Origin: Saccostrea echinata
Taxonomy: Eukaryota
NCBI RefSeq assembly: GCF_033153115.1
Contig: NW_026889750.1
Coordinates: 27,404,001-27,468,000 of the forward strand
DNA length: 64,000 bases
Direction: 5' to 3'
This document shows, in pieces, positions 19,074-52,000 of the stretch. Both the position numbers and the translations under genes were made by a program. Position 1 is the stretch's first letter. Each line of letters opens with the position of its first letter. The notes under the pieces are model-generated. The model had not been told where the DNA came from, did not search any database, and saw nothing but the letters and a program-made list of their open reading frames with translations.

Positions 19074-22000
19074 ATGGCGGCTTCCAGTTTAACAAGTAAG
19101 ACCTCGACCGTAAAGTGTTTCTACAGGTGTCAAGGCACAAAGTTTGGTGATTTTTGATTTCAAAAGTTTTAACAAAAGGAATTCAATACATTTTTGTATA
19201 CAATTTTGTTTGTTTTATTTCCCCAGGATGTGTGCGTTTATGTAACAAACACTTCAACAACATCTGCAGGTTCTCAACTTCCATCAAAAGGCCAAGGTGC
19301 TCAACTACTGTGCAGTATGAGTTAGTTAGAGTAAATAAAAGGGGAGGTGGGGTGTTCGTAGGTATTGTATTTATACAAACCATACATGATAAGTGCTGCT
19401 TTATTACGTTTTTGCAAATGTATGTTTACTGTCGGAGCCTTCCGAGATGGGTCCAAAGTCCACGGTCAATAACCAAGCTTGATATCACTGTTTAAGGTCT
19501 TTGACTGTTTAGAGTATTAGTATATCTTGTTGTTGATTAATTTTATTAAGAGACCAATGCCAAAAATAATTTGAAGGAACAAAGACAAATATTTAATCTT
19601 TCAAGATTTTTAACAAATTTTAAATAGCAAAAGAAAGTAGCAGTTTGACACTACAGGCAATTTTTTTGCCCTGAATAATAATATAATAAGTGGGGGAAAA
19701 AATTAAAAACTTCAAAAATTTTCATACTGTAATAGCACTAAATAAAACAAAATTAGATAATTTTAAAATAATTCACTTTTAATTTTGCCTTATTTTGCTT
19801 TATTTACTGCTGATGGGAGGTGCTCGTAATTTATTTTATTTTTCAAGCCCAGATTTTATTTTATGTCTCTCTTGATGTTTGATTTATTAAAATAGATTAA
19901 AGCATCAAAATTTTTTAAAAAGAGTTTGGTTTGCCTTTTATTTCTTTAGAATTTAACAATTCTCTTTTAAATTTCAAAGAAATGGAGAGGTACGCCCAGA
20001 AATTGGCCAAGCATCCACCATGATGGATATAGGAACACGTGAAATTTTCTCTGCTGAGCATGATATGTTCAGACAGAATGTTCGAAGATTCTTCCAAGAA
20101 GAAGTACTTCCCCATCACAGCAAGTAAGTGTATTTAGGGACAAAAAGCATTGGAGTTTAAATAAAAATAAGGGAATTTTACATCACTTATATGCTGTAGA
20201 TCTTTCCAGCTCAATAACTATGTTGAGCTGTCTGGCAAAGGTAAGACTGTATTTATGACTGGAGTAAACTTTTCATATGTTAGATTCTACTTCTCCAAAA
20301 TTAATGCAAAATCCGATTCAATCAAAATCTGCCCCAAAACAACCTTGGGTAAGGGGAATTTATAAATTATGTTTAACTGAAGAGTCTTGTTCCTCTCCTT
20401 TCAAGAAAGGATTATTCATATAGTAAGAAAAAGTGGCATTATGTTGAATTGTTAAAAAATCTTCTTGCACAAAACTGGGCCAGAAATGACAACAAAATCA
20501 GTGATAACTTGTACACTGTAGGTTGAAATATGTTTAGCAGATGACCATGGGTCAAAGGTGTTTCTATATACATGTACAGGTATAAAGTAATTGTATTTTC
20601 ACAATATATTCCATTTTGTTCAGATTGTGCACTCACTGAAATGTTTCAACTTCATTTCATTTGTAAGCCAGATTAATCTTAATCAGCTAGGCATTGTGGC
20701 CATGGGACTGTCACACCTGTAACCTTTGCAGCAGAATTGTAAGGCCTGTACTTTGTATTTGTAGGTGGGAAAAAGATGGACAGGTCAGCAGAGAGGTAAG
20801 AGCTGTCAATCAGAATTCAAAATGAGGCATTGTAATATTTCTAACATCACTATTTTAGTTCAGTGGATGTATCACAGTCTGTTTAATATGCACTTTTTAA
20901 TTTTTTTTTAATTTACATTTATGCTTCCTGTTGAGCAGATTAAAGAAGTGTTCCTATGCATAATTGCACATAAGTGCTTTTGTAGTGTAGAGCTTTATTA
21001 GTATTCATTTGATTGTTAGGTTTGGGAGAAAGCAGGTCAGAATGGTTTGTTGGGTGTCAACACAAAAGAGGAGCATGGAGGAGTAGGAGGGGATGTTCTG
21101 TCCACAGCCATTACCTGGGAAGAACAGTGTGTATCTATTTAGCTCACCTGAGCTATCAGCTTAAGAGAGCTTTTCTGATCACCCAGTGTCTGGCATTGAT
21201 CTGACTGTCCATCTATAAACTTTACACAACCTTTTTTGACTTCTTCTCCAGAATCACAGGACCAATTTCAACCAATTTTTGCACAAAGCATCCTTGGGCA
21301 AAGGGGATTCAAATTTTTTTCAAAGGAAGGACTACACTCTTTTCAAAGGGGAGATAATTAAGAAATCATGAAAATTTAAGCGCATCTTTTAAAAATCTCA
21401 AGAACCACAGGGTCAGAAAAAGTCAATACTTTGCAGGGATTTATCAGTACCTTCTCAGGGGCCGAAATTCGGCCCCATTTCCAATTAAAAATGAGTTCAA
21501 TTTTTCCCAGTTTGGCAGTATTTTTTCCCAATTGGTGAACAATGCTTTGATATTTAATTATCTTGGAAAAAACTCAGTAAAATTGTCAGATTGTCTGTAA
21601 TTTTCCTCTGTTTATCTCATTTCGCAAAGTTACAGTCATAAGATGTTGAAAAACACTGTTAGTAAACATCGCCGACTTTTAATCCGAATTTCCTCCGTTT
21701 TTCTGAAAATGATGATATTGTTTAATAATATAGATTAATTAAAATTATTTCCACCTATTCAATTGATCTACGAGTGAATGGTAAGAACTGTAGGCATATA
21801 TTTCAGATGGAAAAATGTATTTTCAATGTTTTTACATATCAAAAGGGAACTTTGAGAAAATGTGTACCGTAAGTTTTGGGGGTATAGGTCGATACTTTTT
21901 TTCTCAGAACCGTTGGGGTCGCCCAATTTAACGAATCGACCTTTCTAAGGCTCAAGTTTATGAAAAATGCCCCCAAATTAGTGAAATTTACGTCAATTTC

Positions 22001-40100: not shown

Positions 40101-43100
40101 TTTTGGGACAAAGAGGTGTGATTTAATTGTTCCTCAGCATTTTTTTGAAGGACTTTTAAAAAGAAAACTTTAGAACCTGAACATAATGAATATGAATTAT
40201 TTAGAGGTTGTATTGTTAGAAAAGGTTAACAAGAAATGACATATATTTGTTGAGTAGTCTATACCTTGATGACAAAAGCTGAGGTCTGGACTTTTTCACA
40301 AATTACAAAAAAAAAGAGACAAAAAAAATTCAGTTCTCATTATAAATATATTATGAATATAAATAATGTCTTTTTAAACAAAGAAAATGCAAAGTTGTCA
40401 GATTCTTTAATATTTGCAAGATTTCTTTTGTCAGAAGGGCTACCAATCTTTTTGTATGAATTGAATAAATATTGAGAGACATTACCTTCCCTGATTTTCT
40501 ATTCACAGGGAATAGATTACTAGTTAAAATTAAGAATGAAATCAATATTAAAACATTTAATTTTTGCAGGCATCGCCGGGCGGAATGGAAGTGGGCATCA
40601 GACAGGGCAGCAGTGGCGTGTCGATGGACATGGTTACAAGCTCAAGTCTCGGATTTGGAATACCGAATACGTCAGCAAAGTGATATTCACAAACAAATTA
40701 GGCATAATAAAGGCAGCGTTGTTTTGGGTGAACCTCCCTCATTGGAAGAGCTAGGTGCACGCCTCAGGCAGGCTCGGGCAAATGGAAAACTATTATCTCC
40801 TATAGAAACCAAAATTGCTGATTTTGATGCAAAGAATGTATCAGGATCCCCCTGCAATATAGCTGCTGTTATGACCAATGTTAATCGTCAAGCAACAAAA
40901 TTAACACAATCATTAGGAAACTGTTTAACACCTATTCAGTCTAATTTACTGACAGAGAACAAATTAAAAGATGGACAATGTAACAGTTTAAATGGTGTTG
41001 TCAATTCCACACATCCATCCTCTACAACAGAAGAAAACTTGTCTTCAGTGTTGCCAGGTCCTTCAGGTGATGCTTCGTCTGTTGAGCAGTCCCCACCCTC
41101 AGCCCTTCTAGATGCTACCTGTCAGGCTGCAAGATGTCGGCCTGTACGTAGTTATAGGAAGAGGAAATTGTTAAGGACTTCTGGCCTGCATCAGGTCTCT
41201 CGTAAGGCCGCACGTCTATCAACAGTGAAGTGTCACTGTTCGCCGCCTTTCTCTTCATGTCCCATGTGTGGGGGACGGTACAATAATTCACAGACTGTGG
41301 ATGCCGATACCATGCCTGTTAATGAAAGAGTGTCCCTCCTTGATCCATCCTATCACCCAGTTTTGTCTTTCAATGAAGGTAACATTACAACTGGATTTCA
41401 GTCTTGCTTAAGCAGAGTAAGCTTGAGCAGACAAATGTTTCTTTTCAAACTAAGTTATTTTTGTAAATGTCTTCATTGTGTTGCTTTAGACAATGTCTGT
41501 CACATTTACTGAGCTATCGACTCAACCTTAATTAATTTTTGTTTAAGATCAATATGAACCTGTATTCCTTATGAATTCAAGACAACTGTTATTAATAACC
41601 TCTTTGCAAGTCAGTACAAGAACTATAATTGTGACATCTTAAGATCTGAATTAATTTAGAATTTAATATCTTGAAAGAGAAAATGTAGAGAGACATATAG
41701 ATTAGCAAGACATAAAGTATAGATTTAAGCAATATTCTTATAATGCTTTTTCACAGTGTTTTTTGTTGCCTTGTGAATTAGAGTGAAATAATTAAATAGA
41801 CTGAACTTAATGTAATAATCTTTAACTTGTTTTATTCTATCAGAAATTCCACTGACAATTCACTTTGAGGCTCTGCTGAAGAGTGGAGACTGGCAAAACA
41901 AACCACCACCGAAAGCTACAAAACTCCTGTCTACTGACAGAAAGTAAGTGGTTGGCTAGCTTAATAATAAGGATATTCAGTAAATACTTGTAGCTAGATT
42001 GGAGTGAGATCATGAAGAGGAAGGCAATGGAAAAAGTCTGAATAATGACGTCATTGTGTGTGTATGTATTGGTTGATAATGTTGCTATGTGTTGACTTTA
42101 CTTGTAGACGACAAAAGCTGTTGGTACCTTCTGTACGAGGAAAAGTTAGAAAACAAACAAAATATGCAAAGGGTGCAGCTACAGCATTACTGGCTTCAGC
42201 AAGTAAGTGTCTTTTTAAGGACATACGCAACATAGTTTGAACTTTATTGACTTTTTCCATGGAGTTGAAGAGTTCGCAGTGATTTTTTTTTGGGTCAAAA
42301 GGCCACCGATATTCGGCTGTTTCCCCTCACAAAAATAAGCCATTTTTTCCCAATTATTAGTATATTTTTCCCAATTTCAAACATACGAAAATTATGTTTT
42401 AATTTTGAACAAAAGTCACTAAATTTACTGACAGAGTAAATACGTTTTTATTCTTCAAATCCATGTATATGCAGCGGATTTTTTTAATGAATGTGTAAAA
42501 CAATGCAGATATCCATATAAGCAGATAAGTAGCTCATAATATTCTCAATGAATTGGTAACTAGTTCCCAGACACAAGTCATGTTGACATAATGATTTTGT
42601 TTTGACTGCCGTTATTACATAGAGGGTCAGGCTAATAACAGGAAATGGACAACACACAGGGTTTCACTAAAACCGGGAAAAAACAAACAGTAAAGACTGT
42701 AAACTTGATTATCAATATAAGACAGTTTACTAGATTATCAGTCTAAATGCTTGTTTATTTTTTTTTAATGAAATTTGACAAAGCAATTCCAAGAAAATAG
42801 AAGCTACAAGAGGAGACTAATATAAGCCATGTTCACATTCAATAAAATATTGATGTTAATTTTTTTAAAATGATTATTTTATGAATTTAAATCAAAATCA
42901 AAGTTAAAATCAAACAAAATATGTTGTTGTTACTTAGTTCGATTATTTTATGTATTTTTTAGCATTCTAATTTACTATCAATAATTTTTCCCAATTTGAG
43001 GAAAATGTCGCTAATTTTTCCCAATTCAAAAGGAGGGGGTGGTGGTTTAAAAAACAAAAAAAATCACTGGTTCGGATGCTTAAAGGAAGTGTATGCTACA

Positions 43101-46100
43101 TTTTAAAGGTGCTTGGACACAGATTTGAAGTTAATATTTTCTCAAATTTTCTGTATAATTTCATGACTTATATGTTGCTATAGCAATTCATACTAAAATA
43201 TAATAAAAATCTTATTTCATCTCATAGTTATTGAAACTTCAAATTTCTGAACGCGTTTGATTGACACATCCTTGCACTTTCACAAATTTTAATTTTATTT
43301 TTAATACTTAAGAAAAGTGGCAATTTTGTTGTGTATTAATGAAAAATATTAAAACTATAATCCAGAAAATTCAGAGTAGAAATGTTCAAAAGCAAAACCC
43401 ACTTACAGTATTGTCAGTCCGTGCTCAGTGGTGTGTGCAGACTTTAACAATTGAACACACCTGGTGAATCGTAAACATTAATAATAACAGAGCTCGTGCC
43501 CTGTTTACAAAAACAGTTTACGTTTCACAGGTGTATTCAATTTGTTAAACTCTGTACACAACACTGAGCACGGGCTGACGATATTAGTGAGGGGGTTTGC
43601 TTTCGCACATTTCTACTCTGAATTTTCTGGATTATAGATGTAATGTTTTTCATTAATACACAACAAAATCGCTTCTTTTCTTAAATGTTAAGGATAAAGA
43701 TAAAATTTGTGCAAGTGCAAGGATGTGTCAATCAAATGCGTCCAGGAATTCGTAGTTCCAATAATTTCCAGATAAAATAAGTTCTTAATTATATTTTCGT
43801 GTGAAATGCTATTTCAATATATAAGTCGTGATATCATACAGAAAATTTGAGAAAATATTAACTTCAAATCTGTGTCTAAGCACCTTTAATGTCTATATAT
43901 GCTGTTCTACACTTCTTTTAAAAGAAGTTTGGATAAACAAAACATTTAGAAATATGTTTAGTAATTTTTGTATATTTTTCTTTGAATTATACAAGAATTT
44001 TCATCAATTGATATCTTTTCAAAACTCCTGGTAATGCATGCTGATTTTTTGTCTATGAACGTCTGATGGCGCTATAATCTTAAAATTAAAAATATCTTGG
44101 AAAATTATCAGTAGGTAAGGTACGTTGTGTATGTCCTTAAATGGTTATAATGATAGACATTAGGCATACACAAGATTAGAAAATAGATTTTAAGGATATT
44201 TCAAATAAGCCCTAATAGAAATAAGAGTTGGAGTTGAGAGTTCGGGGCTTATATGCAATTATTTTACAAATGGAAAAATTGATTTATTTGTAGCTTAAAA
44301 CAAACATTTTTATGACTCCTTGTCAAAATGGTAAAACTCAAAACCAGACACTGAGACATCGGACATTCCGGTCTGGTGTAAAAAATGGTGAATTGGACCT
44401 GATGCACTATACATTTGGTCAGGTCCGTTGGTCCAATGCGATTTGGAAAGTCTGCTGTTGTAAATATTACAGCCTTTTAATTATAGTAATTTATTATGCT
44501 TAAATCCCAAAAATATAGAAAATTGGGCAATAAAATTATCAGTACTGATAATCAGTATCATAATCAGTGATGTTCCAACTGAAGGTCAATCATTATTTCC
44601 AGTTGATGTCTGATCATCATTTGTTTGAGTTTGATTGGAGAAAATTTGAAGGAAAAGAAGTCTTTATTTGTATGAACTTAATCTGAGAAAATTTATTTTC
44701 AGAGCTGCGGAATAAGTATGAGAGGAGGACTCCCACCAAAGGCAGACCAAGTCTGAAGTCAACCAGGAAAGTCTCGGATCTCAGAAAGAGAAGAATGACT
44801 GAGAGTCTTTCAATCGGTAATAGACTAATTTTAAAGATTGGTCAATACTTTTGTGTAGGTCAGTTAACAGTTTTAAATCAAGTCAATATGTTCTGTCTAG
44901 TTAACTCATCTGAGCTGAAGGCTCAAGTGAGCTTTTCTGATCAAAGAGCGTTCATTATGCTTCATTTGTCCGCGATGTGTCGTCTGTAAACTTTTCATCA
45001 CATTTTCTACTTCTCTTGAACCATGGGGCCAATTTCAACCAAACTTGCCACAAAGTATCCTTGGGTGAAAGGTATTAAAGTTTATTCAAATGAAGGGCCT
45101 TGCCCTCTTTCAAGGGGAGATAATTAAGAATTAGTGAAAATTTTATGGCATCTTTTCAAAATCTTCTTCTCAATAACCACTGGGCCAGAAAAGATGAAAC
45201 TAATGTGAAAGCTCTATTATATAGTGTAGCTATAAATTTGTTCAAATCATGAACCCCAGGATTTGGGCATGGCCACAATTGGTGATGTAAGCTTTACAAA
45301 GGAATATTAAAGAAAATCTTTAAAAATCTTCTTATCAAGAACAGCAAAGCCATGATTAATCATATTTATATGGAAACATCCTCAGGAAGTGTAGATTCAA
45401 ATTACTTCATGTCTTGACTCCTGGGGTAGGGCCGGGACACACTTTACATAGGAATTTATAGGTAAAAATCTGTAAAAATCTTTTAAAGCCATGATTAATC
45501 ATATAAAATTAATATAGAAGCATCTTCAGTTACTGTAGATTCAAGTTTGTTCAAATCATGACCCTCTCCCCTGTCCCTCCTGAGGTAGGATGGGACCACA
45601 CATACTTAAACTTTTCAATACTGAACTGATTTCTGCTTTTCTCTAACCAAAGTGCTCAGGTGAGCAGTGTGAAACATGGACCTCTTGTTTAGTGTACAGT
45701 ATTAGATCCTTTGTATAAATATGCTCTGTCTAGTTTAGTTAATTCATTTAACAGTGTTAAATCAAGTGGATAAGTTCTGTCATGCTCAGCTAACAGTATC
45801 TTGTGGATATGCTCTGTCTAGTTCAGTTAACAGTGTGGAATCTTGTGAAAATGCTGTACCTAGTTCAGTTAACAGTGTGGAATCTTGTGGATATGCTCTG
45901 TCTAGTTCAGTTAACATTGTGGAATCTTGTGAATATGCTCTATCTAGTTCAGTTAACAGTGTGGAATCTTGTGAATATGCTCTGTCTAGTTCAGTTTACA
46001 GTGTGGAATCTTGTGAATATGCTCTATCTAGTTCAGTTAACAGTGTGGAATCTTGTGAGTATGCTCTGTCAAGTTCAACATACAGTGTTGAACTTATGAA

Positions 46101-48397
46101 TATGCTCTGTCTAGTTCAGTTAACAGTGTAGAATCTTGTGGATATGTTCTGTCTAGTTCAGTTTACAATGTTGATTCTTAACTAGGGATGTCAACGAGTA
46201 ACCTGTACCTTAAATACTCATCAAAACGTCCAAGTATTGAATACTGAAACAGTGTTTTTAAGCCCAACAGAGTTTTGCAAGAAGAGTTTTATAGGAAATC
46301 TTGAGCTACTACACAATGATATACCATATTTATTATTTATACACAGCTCTTAAACAAGACAGTATGGATGATGGACAATTGTCTGGGCCTTCTGATTATG
46401 ATGATGAGGATGAATATGCAAACTGTGGTCGTGATACTCTCCTGTCCTCTAGCGGGGCTTCAACTGGCTTCAGGGAACTGAAGGATGCTACCATGCGGAA
46501 AAGACGCTTGGAGAGTGCATATGATATTGACAACATTGTAATACCTTATAGCATTGCCTCAGCAACACGAGTGGTCAAATTAGAATACAAGGAAATTGTT
46601 ACACCCAAGTATGTTGTTTTCTGCCTAATTGCTAATTCCTTACTAGGTAATACTGGCATTTAAATTGTTTGAAATATGGAAAGGAGATAGTGACATTGCA
46701 ATTACTTGTTTTTGTTACAAGATAAATTTAGCTTATATTCTATCAGTAGCACTGTTTTTATTGATAAATTTAGCTTATGTTCTATCTGATGTACATTGTC
46801 CAACTGTCGGATTTTAAAATTTGCAGTTAGCGTATTACTGATGTAAGATTAGGATTGATTGATTGTGTGTTGTTTTACATCCCATTTGAGAATTTTTCAC
46901 TCATATAGAGACATCACCATATACCGGTGAAGGGCTTCAAATTTTGACCTTTACTCGGCACTCAGGGCCATTGAGCAGTGAGGGAACTTTATCGTGCCAA
47001 CGCCTGCCGTGACACGGGGCCTCGGTTTTTAAGGTCTCATCCGAAGGACCCGCAACTTTCACTTCAAAGTGCCGAGCGCATGGCGAAGGAACAGTTGCTA
47101 CCTATTTTTAATCGACTTAGGTCTGTCGCGGCCGAGATTCGAACTCACGACCTCCCGATCATGGAGCGAGCGCTCTACCGACTGAGCTACTGTGAACGGT
47201 GTTTAAGGTTAGGATCCTGTGCATTAAGACAGGTAGTCTATCATACTAAATAAAGAGATTTTTTCAGGTGGAGAGATATTACAGAGAATTCTGAAGAAAC
47301 AGACAATACACCAGAAGATACAAACAAGGAGTTAACAGATGAGGTAGACCTGTTAAATTTTCATACTCAAGATATCAAAGATTGGTGATATTTTATTTTT
47401 GATCTGCCTATTACTCTTTCTTTCTTTTTTCACAACTGTACCAGAACTTCTTAAATTGCACAAGGTTGAGATGTCATATTTAATCATGGTGAAGGCTTTA
47501 TATTAAGCCAATCATGGATAGAAGTTAAAAAGATCAAAAACTGTCATTCTTGGTTCTACGTAAAAACTTCAGAAACACTTCTGCTGCTGCTGCTAAAGAC
47601 TTGGATAAAGTAGATGCTTTCTTTTTTATATTGCAATATGAAGTGATCTCTTAGCAAGGAAAACTCATTTATATTTTTTTGTTTTGTAGACTGAGAACAC
47701 ATCAGATGAATTCTTTGCTGCAATGCATGATAAATGTGAAATCCAAGAAAGGAAGCGTTTCCAGTCTTTCATAAAGTATCCCAGTCGTCGCAGTCGAGGA
47801 TCAAGAAATGATTCAGGACCATTGACTCCAGACACTGCATCTACTGATGTGTGTGTCCTCAATGAAGGCAATGACAGTGCCCAAAGAATTGATGATGATA
47901 CTCGTCGTAGAAGCCAAACACTGTCCTCAAGTGGAGGAAGCCACACAAACTTAGCTGCATCACTGAGGGAGGAAGTGTTCAGACGGAGGAGTAGTTCTGC
48001 ATCTTTAAGGAGGTCCAGTGTGAGTGTAGGCACGGATGATATAAGTATGGACATTGATGATGGAGAGTTGGTAGAACCCTGGCCTATCAGGTCTTTTCCA
48101 CTTTCGGAGGAAGAGTATGAAGAAATGAAGACCAGTGTCTCCCAACCTGAAGTAGAAACATGTACCTACTTTACCCGGAATAAAATCTCAAGCAACTCAA
48201 TTGTTGGACTCGATGAGGAGACCAGTGTTAGTGAAGGAACAACATTTGATGCAGTGGAGACACAGGTCAGTGTACCAGAATCTCCAAATAGCTCAGCTGG
48301 ATCACACACCAGTGAAGATCCAAATGATCCGGAGTGGACTGTAGCAAATAGTGATAAATTGGGGGAAAAAAATTTAGTTCGACTTGGTCGTAGGTGA
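37110..48397 (+). CDS. KANSL1: KAT8 regulatory NSL complex subunit 1 (NSL1), about 1125 aa, 8 coding exons
   Basis: Exons 37110-38323, 40570-41378, 41844-41943, 42108-42202, 44703-44816, 46347-46608, 47268-47343, 47690-48397 (3378 nt, in phase). Signatures [73 protein letters not shown]5-binding WIN-like [47 protein letters not shown] and PEHE region [23 protein letters not shown]. Confidence 0.95.
42277..43069. mobile_element. hAT5-like MITE (5-bp TSD) in a KANSL1 intron
   Basis: TIR CAGTGATTTTTTTT / AAAAAAAATCACTG; TSD GTTCG at 42272-42276 and 43070-43074; TTCCCAATT subterminal repeats. Confidence 0.8.
43107..43885. mobile_element. Kolobok-type foldback non-autonomous transposon
   Basis: TTAA on both sides, AGGTGCTT..AAGCACCT termini, ~370-bp inverted arms (43107-43476 / 43516-43885) around a ~40-bp spacer. 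Confidence 0.85.
44901..45690 (+). mobile_element. Complete HINE-type (Helentron non-autonomous) element with Cg170-like units
   Basis: 5' TTAACTCATCTGAGCTGAAGGCTCAAGTGAGCTTTTCTGATC, about 4 tandem ~165-bp units, 3' CTCAGGTGAGC..CATGGACCTCTTGTT. Confidence 0.8.
45715..46175. repeat. 42-bp minisatellite in a KANSL1 intron
   Basis: About 10 copies of GAATATGCTCTGTCTAGTTCAGTTAACAGTGTGGAATCTTGT; diverged units also at 44830-44900. Confidence 0.95.
46856..47203 (-). mobile_element. Full-length tRNA-derived SINE (Meta+Deu / MD-SINE-like)
   Basis: Minus strand: tRNA head GTAGCTCAGTCGGTAGAGC..GAGTTCGAATCTC, Meta-like block, Deu-like CTTCGGATGAGACC..AAACCGAGG..GGCACGATAAAG, (CAAT)n tail; TSD TAAG(A/G)TTAGGAT at 46844-46855 and 47204-47215. 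Confidence 0.85.
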
Positions 48398-50662: not shown

Positions 50663-51334
50663 GGAACTGCATAACGGTTTTAATTTCAGAATTTCAAACA
50701 GCGTAATCTTTGATGTGGAGTCTGTTTTCCGCTTGGCCCCTGGAACATTTACTATAGTAAACCGGTGTGAAAATCAAACGTTCGAAAAATTTGAATTGAT
50801 GCTTTCATATTGATGTGAAGGACATTGTTGCCCTGCTGTTTTGTCAGTGAAGGGGAGGACAAAAGATCTCCCCAATATATTTCTATATCACTCATCTATC
50901 ATGGCCTCACCCTATTGCTATAGAGTCATGATTAAATCAAATATGAGTGAATAATTGCATAATTTTAAATATAATTGTGGCCCTGCATTTCATGAAAAGA
51001 TGTATTTAAGTATTGTTCTTATAAAAAAAAATATTTCCCTCTTTTAGCTCACCCTATTCGATTTGAATGAACTTAATTACATAGAAAAGCCTGTATATAT
51101 AAATTCAGCTCTTTATGGACCTTCTGTTCTGTAGAAGATTTCTATAGATTTTGTGATATGTTTTCCATTCATTAAAAGGCCCATGATCCTTAATCCTCAC
51201 CCGAGTCACAGAAATGAAACCTTTAAATACTGAAGCTTTAAATCCATATGTATTGTGATACCGATTCATTCTGTATTCTTCAAAGATCGGTTTCTCTATA
51301 TATGTGTGTAAAATGTTTCATAGTCGGACGTCAG

Positions 51335-52000
51335 AAACGGCTTATAGGATCAGCAAAAGGAAGATCAAAGTATTTAAAGCAAAAATCATTGTACAACATA
51401 GCCAGAAAATTAAGCATCAAGACACGGAGAAAGTAACATCATTCCGATATTTAGGCAGTGAAGTAAACAGCACAGTAGGTTTCTACATCAAAATCAGAAT
51501 AGGAAAAGCCAGAACAGCACTTTATATGATGAGTGATATATGGAAAGCAAAGAGCGTTAGTCTGAGGACTGTAATTCAAACAATAAAACTATAGACCTAT
51601 TGCTCTATGGATCAGAAACCTCGAGTACAACCAAAGAGCGCATGAAACAACTATGTGTCTTCAACAACAGCTTCCTTAGGCAAATTTTGAACATCGGTAG
51701 GCCTGATAGAACAAACCAATTCCCATTAGAAATAGAAATACAAAAAAGGAGATGGCGATGGATTGACCGCACATTAAGAAAGCCGAGGATTTCCATTACT
51801 CGGCAGAAACTTCAGTGGAACCCACAGGGAAAACCAGGGGGAGGCCAAAGAACACATCGAGAAGGTGTGTTGTGTCAGAGATGGAGAGGGGAGGTTACAA
51901 GTAGTAACAGCTGAAAAAGGAAGACAGGAAGAGGTAGAAAGGTGATATCAGTTGCATATGCTCCTCACTGGAGTAAAAGGCATAAGCAAGCAAGCAAGCA
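51335..52000 (+). mobile_element. 5'-truncated RTE-clade LINE fragment
   Basis: [59 protein letters not shown]; (AAGC)n tail at 51984-52000. Confidence 0.85.

What the first reader, a model, noticed from the sequence alone, without database searches (positions are those of the whole stretch)
19074..48397. ACADL directly followed by KANSL1: candidate deep bilaterian microsynteny
Seen: ACADL and KANSL1 are adjacent, on the same strand, ACADL upstream, with about 5 kb of mostly repeat DNA between them. Known (from recall): human ACADL and the paralogue KANSL1L are neighbours in the same tandem arrangement on 2q34. Inference: a fatty-acid oxidation enzyme and a histone-acetyltransferase scaffold have stayed adjacent since the protostome-deuterostome split, perhaps because KANSL1 regulatory elements lie in or near ACADL.
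Basis: partly seen in the sequence, partly recalled or inferred. Interest (0 to 1): 0.7.

Follow-up and report, generated by a model that had tools for sequence, protein, structure and literature searches.

The report
Ancient ACADL–KANSL1 gene neighbours, already catalogued
In this oyster a fat-burning enzyme gene (ACADL) sits directly in front of a chromatin-regulator gene (KANSL1); the neighbourhood is likely inherited from the common ancestor of molluscs and vertebrates, the two genes already share a block in a published synteny table, and it most likely survives passively rather than because one gene holds the other's switches.

Summary
Observation confirmed: an intact 10-exon ACADL (19074-31666, +) is followed, 5.4 kb on, by an intact KANSL1 (CDS 37110-48397, +). 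Both are single-copy here and true orthologues (LCAD 697 bits vs IVD 237; PEHE and WIN motifs; trees). The adjacency is very likely ancestral to bilaterians: accession numbers are within 3 in 7 of 20 invertebrate assemblies (oyster, mussel, limpets, amphioxus), two reptile gene models fuse ACADL to KANSL1L, and Robert et al. 2022 (supplementary file 4) already put both orthogroups in one 'Bilateria novel' block in amphioxus, sea urchin, acorn worm and centipede. So it is a real but catalogued microsyntenic pair. The proposed mechanism is not supported: KANSL1 has its own 5' exon and promoter 4.7 kb past ACADL, with bivalve-conserved motifs there; ACADL introns are short; KANSL1 is a housekeeping regulator; the pair appears broken in pulmonate snails. 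Best reading: remnant of a dense ancestral housekeeping block, kept mainly because the break target is small.

The parts
19074..31666 (+). ACADL (long-chain acyl-CoA dehydrogenase), coding exons 19074-19095, 19227-19314, 19980-20123, 20765-20795, 21020-21126, 25385-25549, 25894-26125, 28031-28246, 30265-30392, 31486-31666; 437 aa
   Evidence: residues 51-437 identical to a named oyster ACADL (P0242)
31667..32400 (+). likely ACADL 3' UTR, AATAAA at 32382
   Evidence: sequence only; inferred
33546..34791 (.). dispersed repeat in the intergenic gap
36335..36451 (+). KANSL1 promoter/start region with short blocks (CCAAT box, blocks at 36399-36419 and 36442-36451) shared with two clam-like contigs L002, L003
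36389..36558 (+). KANSL1 non-coding first exon, spliced over a 400-nt GT..AG intron to 36959
   Evidence: joint in 4 of 4 runs, contig 5' ends 36389-36461
36657..36679 (+). 23-bp conserved non-coding element with a CACGTG box in KANSL1 intron 1; single in the genome
37110..48397 (+). KANSL1 (NSL1), coding exons 37110-38323, 40570-41378, 41844-41943, 42108-42202, 44703-44816, 46347-46608, 47268-47343, 47690-48397; 1125 aa; WIN motif and PEHE domain
   Evidence: exon 1-2 junction seen in RNA contigs
12120..13994 (+).

Best explanation
ACADL and KANSL1 are intact, separately transcribed neighbours whose adjacency is likely inherited from the last common bilaterian ancestor and likely persists mainly passively, as a remnant of a dense block of housekeeping genes. 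Shown: both genes, their orthology, KANSL1's own 5' exon, scrambling of other human 2q34 neighbours in this genome. Shown by proxy or in print: linkage in other bivalves, limpets, amphioxus, sea urchin, acorn worm, centipede and vertebrates. Inferred: rearrangements separate two genes only when a break falls in the few kb between ACADL's poly(A) site and KANSL1's promoter (about 4 kb here), so in slowly rearranging lineages the pair often survives, with at most mild selection; it breaks without loss of either gene in other lineages; after the vertebrate genome duplications ACADL went back to one copy, which happens to lie beside KANSL1L.
For: Independent promoter: KANSL1 contigs begin at 36389-36461 in 4 of 4 runs, none reaches toward ACADL within the stretch laid. 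The only non-coding matches between oyster and other KANSL1 loci that lie in register are at that promoter and first intron. Decay pattern: third partners differ by lineage (HAT1/SLC25A12 in centipede and Ptychodera, aminotransferase/CEP78 in sea urchin, CBX/hnRNP A in oyster), and 9 of 20 invertebrate assemblies show distant numbers or separate scaffolds, among them all 4 pulmonate snails with numbers. KANSL1 rows without ACADL in Acanthaster and Ixodes. 0 of 80 metagenome KANSL1 loci hold ACADL, 6 of them with about 10 kb upstream of the matched exon and other genes there. Co-directional, not head-to-head; longest ACADL intron 4,258 bp. KANSL1 is listed as noTD in PMC7530604 Table S3; NSL is enriched at housekeeping promoters.
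Against: Retention in about seven distant lineages with, where it can be told, the same order and strand is more than most ancestral pairs achieve; RPE (3.2 Mb away), the MAP/tau gene (22 Mb away), UNC80 and HAT1 (other contigs) did drift apart in this genome. Irimia et al. and Robert et al. report that such pairs and blocks are on average more co-expressed than controls. The 'losses' rest on accession numbers, which can mislead (B. floridae is 135 apart though its congeners are adjacent). No neutral retention rate was computed from genomes, and ACADL introns could not be compared across species.
Confidence: 0.55

Rival explanations
1. Selected co-regulation in a shared open-chromatin housekeeping domain: ACADL and KANSL1 (with HP1/CBX, hnRNP A, and in other lineages HAT1 and SLC25A12) would share a regulatory neighbourhood, perhaps tying acetyl-CoA supply to histone H4 acetylation.
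For: Oyster order chimaerin, hnRNP A (-), HP1/CBX, ACADL, KANSL1, GAF-PDE; HNRNPA2B1-CBX3 is a named co-expressed ancient pair; KANSL1-HAT1 are neighbours in Strigamia (consecutive ids) and in locus L080; NSL members act on mitochondria; chromatin-architecture terms are enriched in bilaterian-novel blocks.
Against: hnRNP A's first RRM exon and the CBX ATG are about 22 kb apart here, with transposon-like ORFs between, so no tight shared promoter; partners change between lineages; the vertebrate copy that kept ACADL is the fastest-evolving paralogue (stem 1.15 vs 0.2-0.38). No expression data were testable.
Confidence: 0.27
2. One reading: enhancers for KANSL1 lie in ACADL introns or its 3' flank, so the pair cannot be split.
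For: Same order and strand in oyster and in vertebrate fused models; loss of the ACADL coding gene beside two of three vertebrate paralogues is what dismantling of GRBs after duplication would also give (PMC7530604, start of abstract).
Against: KANSL1 is not a developmental target gene; bystander introns are short, none over 10 kb (against the criteria); conserved motifs sit at KANSL1's own promoter; likely breakage in pulmonates.
Confidence: 0.15
3. Chance or convergence: the two genes came together separately in oyster and vertebrates by shuffling within one ancestral chromosome.
For: For human-oyster alone 6-24 chance pairs are expected under rough assumptions; RPE and MAP/tau show that the region shares an ancestral chromosome.
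Against: Linkage in amphioxus, sea urchin, acorn worm, centipede and limpets; four more lineages by chance has probability about 1e-7 to 1e-9 per pair; Irimia et al. found 0.015 such pairs per shuffled genome.
Confidence: 0.02

Closest known systems
Microsyntenic blocks 6584 and 465 ('Bilateria novel') and 422 ('Vertebrata novel') of the Syntenic Density Database, Robert et al. 2022 (PMC8851819, supplementary file 4)
   Same: Orthogroups OG0007857 (ACADL) and OG0003179 (KANSL1) stand in one block on one scaffold in Saccoglossus, B. lanceolatum, S. purpuratus (SPU_021035/021036), Strigamia and Callorhinchus; a Ptychodera model named KANSL1 is filed in the ACADL orthogroup, likely a fused model.
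   Different: Blocks allow five intervening genes and any order; no mollusc row for these two genes was seen in the stored part of the file (cut when stored); the pair is not discussed in the two parts of the text read. The oyster/mussel/limpet instances and the direct tandem arrangement are added here.
Conserved ancestral microsyntenic pairs (CAMPs), Irimia et al. 2012 (PMC3514665)
   Same: Unrelated genes, at most four genes apart, in four or more major lineages; 595 such groups are known.
   Different: Most CAMPs are head-to-head or include a developmental gene; this one is co-directional and has none. Whether it is in their Table S2 could not be seen.
Vertebrate 2q34/17q21 paralogon MAP2-KANSL1L / MAPT-KANSL1 (PMC4815063)
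   Same: KANSL1 and KANSL1L are duplicates from early vertebrate large-scale duplication.
   Different: That paper does not mention ACADL (0 occurrences); in the oyster the MAP/tau gene is 22 Mb away, so ACADL-KANSL1 is the tighter link outside vertebrates.
HNRNPA2B1-CBX3 head-to-head pair
   Same: An hnRNP A gene faces away from an HP1/CBX gene just upstream of ACADL; named as an ancient co-expressed pair.
   Different: About 22 kb apart in this oyster; its linkage to ACADL-KANSL1 was not found in the table rows seen.

Membership tests
ACADL / LCAD | Closest to LCAD among acyl-CoA dehydrogenases | tested here: met
   Human LCAD 697 bits; best bacterial 405; IVD 237; SCAD 218; MCAD 214; VLCAD 167 (query P0242, identical to the window over residues 51-437).
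ACADL / LCAD | One animal clade with vertebrate ACADL | tested here: met
   25 animal rows form one side, 100/100, against 9 bacterial rows; vertebrates 100/99. Other animal ACAD subfamilies were not in the tree; they are excluded by score only.
ACADL / LCAD | LCAD/IVD-type catalytic Glu in helix G, Gly at the MCAD catalytic position (role recalled) | tested here: met
   Both motifs align without change to human LCAD.
KANSL1 / NSL1 | C-terminal PEHE domain | tested here: met
   P0121 (1125 aa, 100% over the exon searched) 37.2 bits, cut-off 34; last window exon alone 22.9 bits.
KANSL1 / NSL1 | WDR5-binding WIN motif (human Arg592, Arg594, Pro595) | tested here: met
   Motif printed in PMC4018492; all three residues kept in the oyster.
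KANSL1 / NSL1 | Single pro-orthologue of the vertebrate paralogues | tested here: met
   One copy in the genome; vertebrate rows form one clade of three paralogue groups (quick tree).
CAMP (Irimia 2012) | Non-paralogous genes at most four genes apart in four or more major lineages | tested here: met
   Direct in oyster; by accession proxy in amphioxus and limpets; consecutive ids in sea urchin; human gene list.
Genomic regulatory block | One partner is a developmental (trans-dev) regulator | tested here: not met
   KANSL1 is listed as noTD in PMC7530604 Table S3; NSL is enriched at housekeeping promoters.
Genomic regulatory block | Long introns in the bystander | tested here: not met
   Longest ACADL intron 4,258 bp, none over 10 kb; the criterion comes from human genes.
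Genomic regulatory block | Conserved non-coding elements in bystander introns | not testable with these tools
   No fetched locus of another animal contained ACADL.
Genomic regulatory block | Enhancer activity and contact with the target promoter | not testable with these tools
   Needs ATAC, 4C/Hi-C, reporters.
Co-regulated (bidirectional-promoter) pair | Head-to-head orientation with shared promoter | tested here: not met
   Co-directional; KANSL1 has its own first exon.
Co-regulated (bidirectional-promoter) pair | Co-expression above matched neighbours | not testable with these tools
   Only assembled contigs were available.

The most novel reading that the evidence does not exclude
ACADL-KANSL1 is the core of an ancestral bilaterian chromatin/acetyl-CoA gene block (chimaerin, hnRNP A, HP1, ACADL, KANSL1, HAT1, aralar, GAF-PDE) held together by one shared open-chromatin domain, forerunner of the vertebrate HNRNPA2B1-CBX3 element, that couples fatty-acid oxidation to histone H4 acetylation; the oyster keeps hnRNP A-HP1-ACADL-KANSL1 in a row, and the vertebrate duplications dealt the pieces out over the HOX-bearing chromosomes.
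Probability: 0.1. Interest if true: 0.6.

Novelty: already known. Interest (0 to 1): 0.22.

Why it matters
As it stands, little: it is one of several hundred ancient bilaterian gene linkages and is already in a published table. It is a useful marker for tracing the HOX-chromosome paralogon, and a clean test case for whether co-directional housekeeping pairs need selection to last 550 million years, since close lineages seem to differ (limpets keep it, pulmonate snails likely not). If a shared regulatory domain were shown, it would tie a metabolic enzyme to a chromatin complex by genome position and bear on 2q34 deletions.

Tried and rejected
First ACADL exon model had the wrong first donor and gave stops; corrected. 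Metagenome loci: 0 of 80 hold ACADL, but most are too short to tell and all are unnamed; none matched the oyster's CBX, hnRNP A, chimaerin or PDE exons. Conserved promoter blocks exceeded all shuffles clearly in 2 of 23 loci (L002, L003); L067 was one point above (27 vs 26) and is not counted; the annelid-like loci showed nothing. Fused models: 2 of 547 fetched proteins, both reptiles; long invertebrate models (e.g. P0162) are not fusions. ACADL proteins of echinoderms, acorn worms, annelids and cnidarians did not appear under a name among the best 120 of either search, so those groups rest on the published table or are untested; nothing is shown for cnidarians or annelids. RNA was laid only on 36040-38330, so ACADL splicing, its 3' end and read-through across the gap remain open; absence of contig cover at 36040-36347 is only a weak hint. 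The Latimeria and Heptranchias proteins looked up turned out to be a third paralogue, so they do not test the ACADL-KANSL1L link. Supplements of PMC3514665 could not be read; PMC6292497 supplements gave only id lists. Earlier findings of this scan: none. A CTCF-like reading of a promoter motif was considered and dropped (several mismatches to a recalled consensus). No structure or complex was predicted: nothing here claims binding.
Full report
1. The observation. Joining exons at GT..AG boundaries gives a 437-aa ACADL from ten coding exons (19074-31666, +) and a 1125-aa KANSL1 from eight (37110-48397, +), both without internal stops, 5,443 bp apart from stop to ATG. No other gene was seen in the gap. 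The genome holds one strong match to each. The proteins match named proteins of a Saccostrea oyster at 100% over the parts compared. The gap is not all repeat: an AATAAA at 32382 likely ends ACADL's 3' UTR, a dispersed repeat covers 33546-34791 (lower bound), and the last 0.75 kb is KANSL1's promoter, first exon and intron.

2. Orthology. The dehydrogenase scores 697 bits against human LCAD, 405 against the best bacterial enzyme and at most 237 against other human ACADs. In a tree of 34 rows, the 25 animal sequences form one side (100/100) against 9 bacterial ones, and vertebrates are one clade (100/99); other animal ACAD subfamilies were not in the tree. KANSL1 has a PEHE domain above Pfam's cut-off and keeps the three WIN-motif residues that Dias et al. 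name (PMC4018492, passages). A quick tree of 21 rows puts all 12 vertebrate rows in one clade with three paralogue groups: human-type KANSL1 (unnamed representatives recognised by motif and tree), a third paralogue, and the ACADL-fused KANSL1L, which has the longest stem.

3. Is the pair adjacent elsewhere? No other animal genome is held, so I used three indirect lines. (a) Accession or locus-tag distance. Calibration: the window's own adjacent pair is 14 RefSeq numbers apart. Of 20 further invertebrate assemblies with numbers for both genes, 7 are within 3 (S. cucullata, M. edulis at two loci, Patella vulgata, P. caerulea, B. lanceolatum, B. belcheri, a B. floridae x belcheri hybrid), 4 are 6-14 apart on one contig (a second amphioxus hybrid, Mizuhopecten on a 564-kb scaffold, Mercenaria, Sinanodonta), and 9 are 135 or more apart or on separate scaffolds (B. 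floridae, Mactra, Pinctada, Mya, Liolophura, Biomphalaria glabrata, B. pfeifferi, Bulinus, Bradybaena). Distant numbers are soft evidence: B. floridae is among them. The four pulmonates agree, which makes a loss there likely. Left out for want of numbers: Ylistrum (same 899-kb scaffold), Pecten and Argopecten (same chromosome), Lymnaea, Plakobranchus and Elysia marginata (separate small scaffolds). (b) Two reptile gene models run from ACADL into a PEHE protein (P0070, P0111; 2 of 547 proteins held), which needs the same strand and order as in the oyster; the human gene list MAP2, UNC80, RPE, KANSL1L, ACADL, MYL1 is in PMC5879085 (one passage). (c) Robert et al. 2022 (PMC8851819; parts 1-2 of 7 of the text; rows of supplementary file 4, cut when stored) place both orthogroups in one block in Saccoglossus, B. 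lanceolatum, S. purpuratus (consecutive ids), Strigamia and Callorhinchus, and list a likely fused Ptychodera model; Acanthaster, Ixodes and Latimeria rows show KANSL1 without ACADL. Blocks there allow five intervening genes. Chance: 6-24 human-oyster pairs could arise by shuffling under my rough assumptions, but four more lineages bring this to about 1e-7 to 1e-9 per pair. The adjacency is ancestral with high probability (about 0.95). Cnidarians and annelids are untested; 0 of 80 unnamed metagenome loci hold ACADL, most being too short.

4. Surroundings. Upstream of ACADL lies an HP1/CBX gene (12120-13994), then, beyond the window, an hnRNP A gene on the other strand and a chimaerin; downstream a GAF-phosphodiesterase (137 candidate ORFs scanned). 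Other human 2q34 neighbours have drifted: RPE 3.2 Mb and MAP/tau 22 Mb away on the same contig, UNC80 on another; HAT1, a block partner in centipede and acorn worm, is also on another contig. The third partner of the pair differs from lineage to lineage, the pattern of a decaying block.

5. How it likely works. RNA contigs from 4 of 4 runs (3 studies) start at 36389-36461 and splice over a 400-nt intron into the first coding exon: KANSL1 has its own start, 4.7 kb past ACADL's stop. Comparing the oyster's non-coding DNA with the 80 loci gave matches in register only here: a CCAAT box and short blocks around the start, and a 23-bp element in intron 1, shared with two clam-like contigs, above all shuffles, single in the genome. 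These contigs do not reach ACADL, so elements inside ACADL are neither shown nor excluded. Against the criteria of Irimia et al. (PMC3514665; abstract, Results parts 1-2 of 3, passages; supplements not readable) the pair is not a typical GRB: KANSL1 is listed as non-developmental (PMC7530604, supplement rows), the NSL complex is enriched at housekeeping promoters (PMC6607013, passages), and ACADL's longest intron is 4,258 bp. It is not a bidirectional pair either. The step from anatomy to cause is inference in all of them.

6. Known or new. It is a member of a known kind (ancient microsyntenic pairs, 595 in Irimia et al.) and this very linkage stands in a published table. I found no paper text that discusses the pair: 'ACADL + KANSL1L' gave 7 papers, none on evolution by title; 'ACADL + KANSL1 + synteny' gave 0; PMC4815063 treats MAPT-KANSL1/MAP2-KANSL1L without ACADL (passages). 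Subscription papers and unseen supplements may hold more. New here are the mollusc instances, the likely loss in pulmonates, KANSL1's promoter motifs and the hnRNP A-HP1 pair next door.

7. Verdict. Observation confirmed; deep conservation supported; proposed mechanism unsupported but open; novelty: already known; interest 0.22.

Noticed in passing
window 12120-13994 (+): HP1/CBX gene (chromo + chromoshadow, four coding exons, no internal stop) directly upstream of ACADL; likely promoter and non-coding exon near 10100-10200 (sequence only).
   Followed up: partly
L082:5368-9798 (-), about 10.2-14.6 kb before the window start: hnRNP A/B gene (best match hnRNP A2/B1) head-to-head with the CBX gene, as in vertebrate HNRNPA2B1-CBX3, but about 22 kb from the CBX ATG.
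   Followed up: partly
L086:4850-8935, L085:628-2633 (+); L093:1965-2819, L095:1432-1677, L096:3108-3287 (+); L099:6459-6713 (-): Chimaerin (SH2-C1-RhoGAP) upstream; GAF-phosphodiesterase (PDE5/11 type) and a PKI gene downstream. CHN1 and PDE11A also occur in published block 465.
   Followed up: partly
L085:8525-9280 (-), L084:897-6606 (-): An unnamed multi-exon gene between chimaerin and hnRNP A, with a winged-helix hit (PF22979) and a last exon that looks nucleosidase-like by eye (recalled resemblance, no Pfam hit).
   Followed up: no
proteins P0207/P0405, P0231, P0222, P0212, P0235: A third vertebrate KANSL1 paralogue (coelacanth, sharks, turtles, ratites, marsupials), sister to human-type KANSL1 in a quick tree, on another chromosome than ACADL in coelacanth and shark; no placental mammal was among the 120 listed hits.
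   Followed up: partly
L080:11976-13352 (-): HAT1 directly downstream of KANSL1, tail-to-tail, in an unnamed animal contig; L080 and L033 share an FtsH-type AAA protease and a polyprenyl synthetase upstream; L015, L019, L070 share PIG-V downstream.
   Followed up: no
window 36657-36679: 23-bp element in KANSL1 intron 1, nearly identical in two clam-like contigs at the same distance (about 400-450 bp) from the ATG; single in the oyster genome.
   Followed up: partly
window 5079-6946 (-): Two overlapping long ORFs (337 and 314 aa), cysteine-rich, transposase-like by eye; no Pfam hit.
   Followed up: no
window 45798-46179: 42-bp tandem repeat, 9 copies, in KANSL1 coding intron 5; 20-23-bp arrays at 2696-3733.
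   Followed up: no
window 51259-51914 (+): Fragments resembling the end of a LINE reverse transcriptase (by eye; no Pfam hit).
   Followed up: no
proteins P0011, P0021, P0035, P0119: Amphioxus carries lineage-specific ACADL duplicates (Bbelb_251750 and 251760), numbered next to KANSL1.
   Followed up: no
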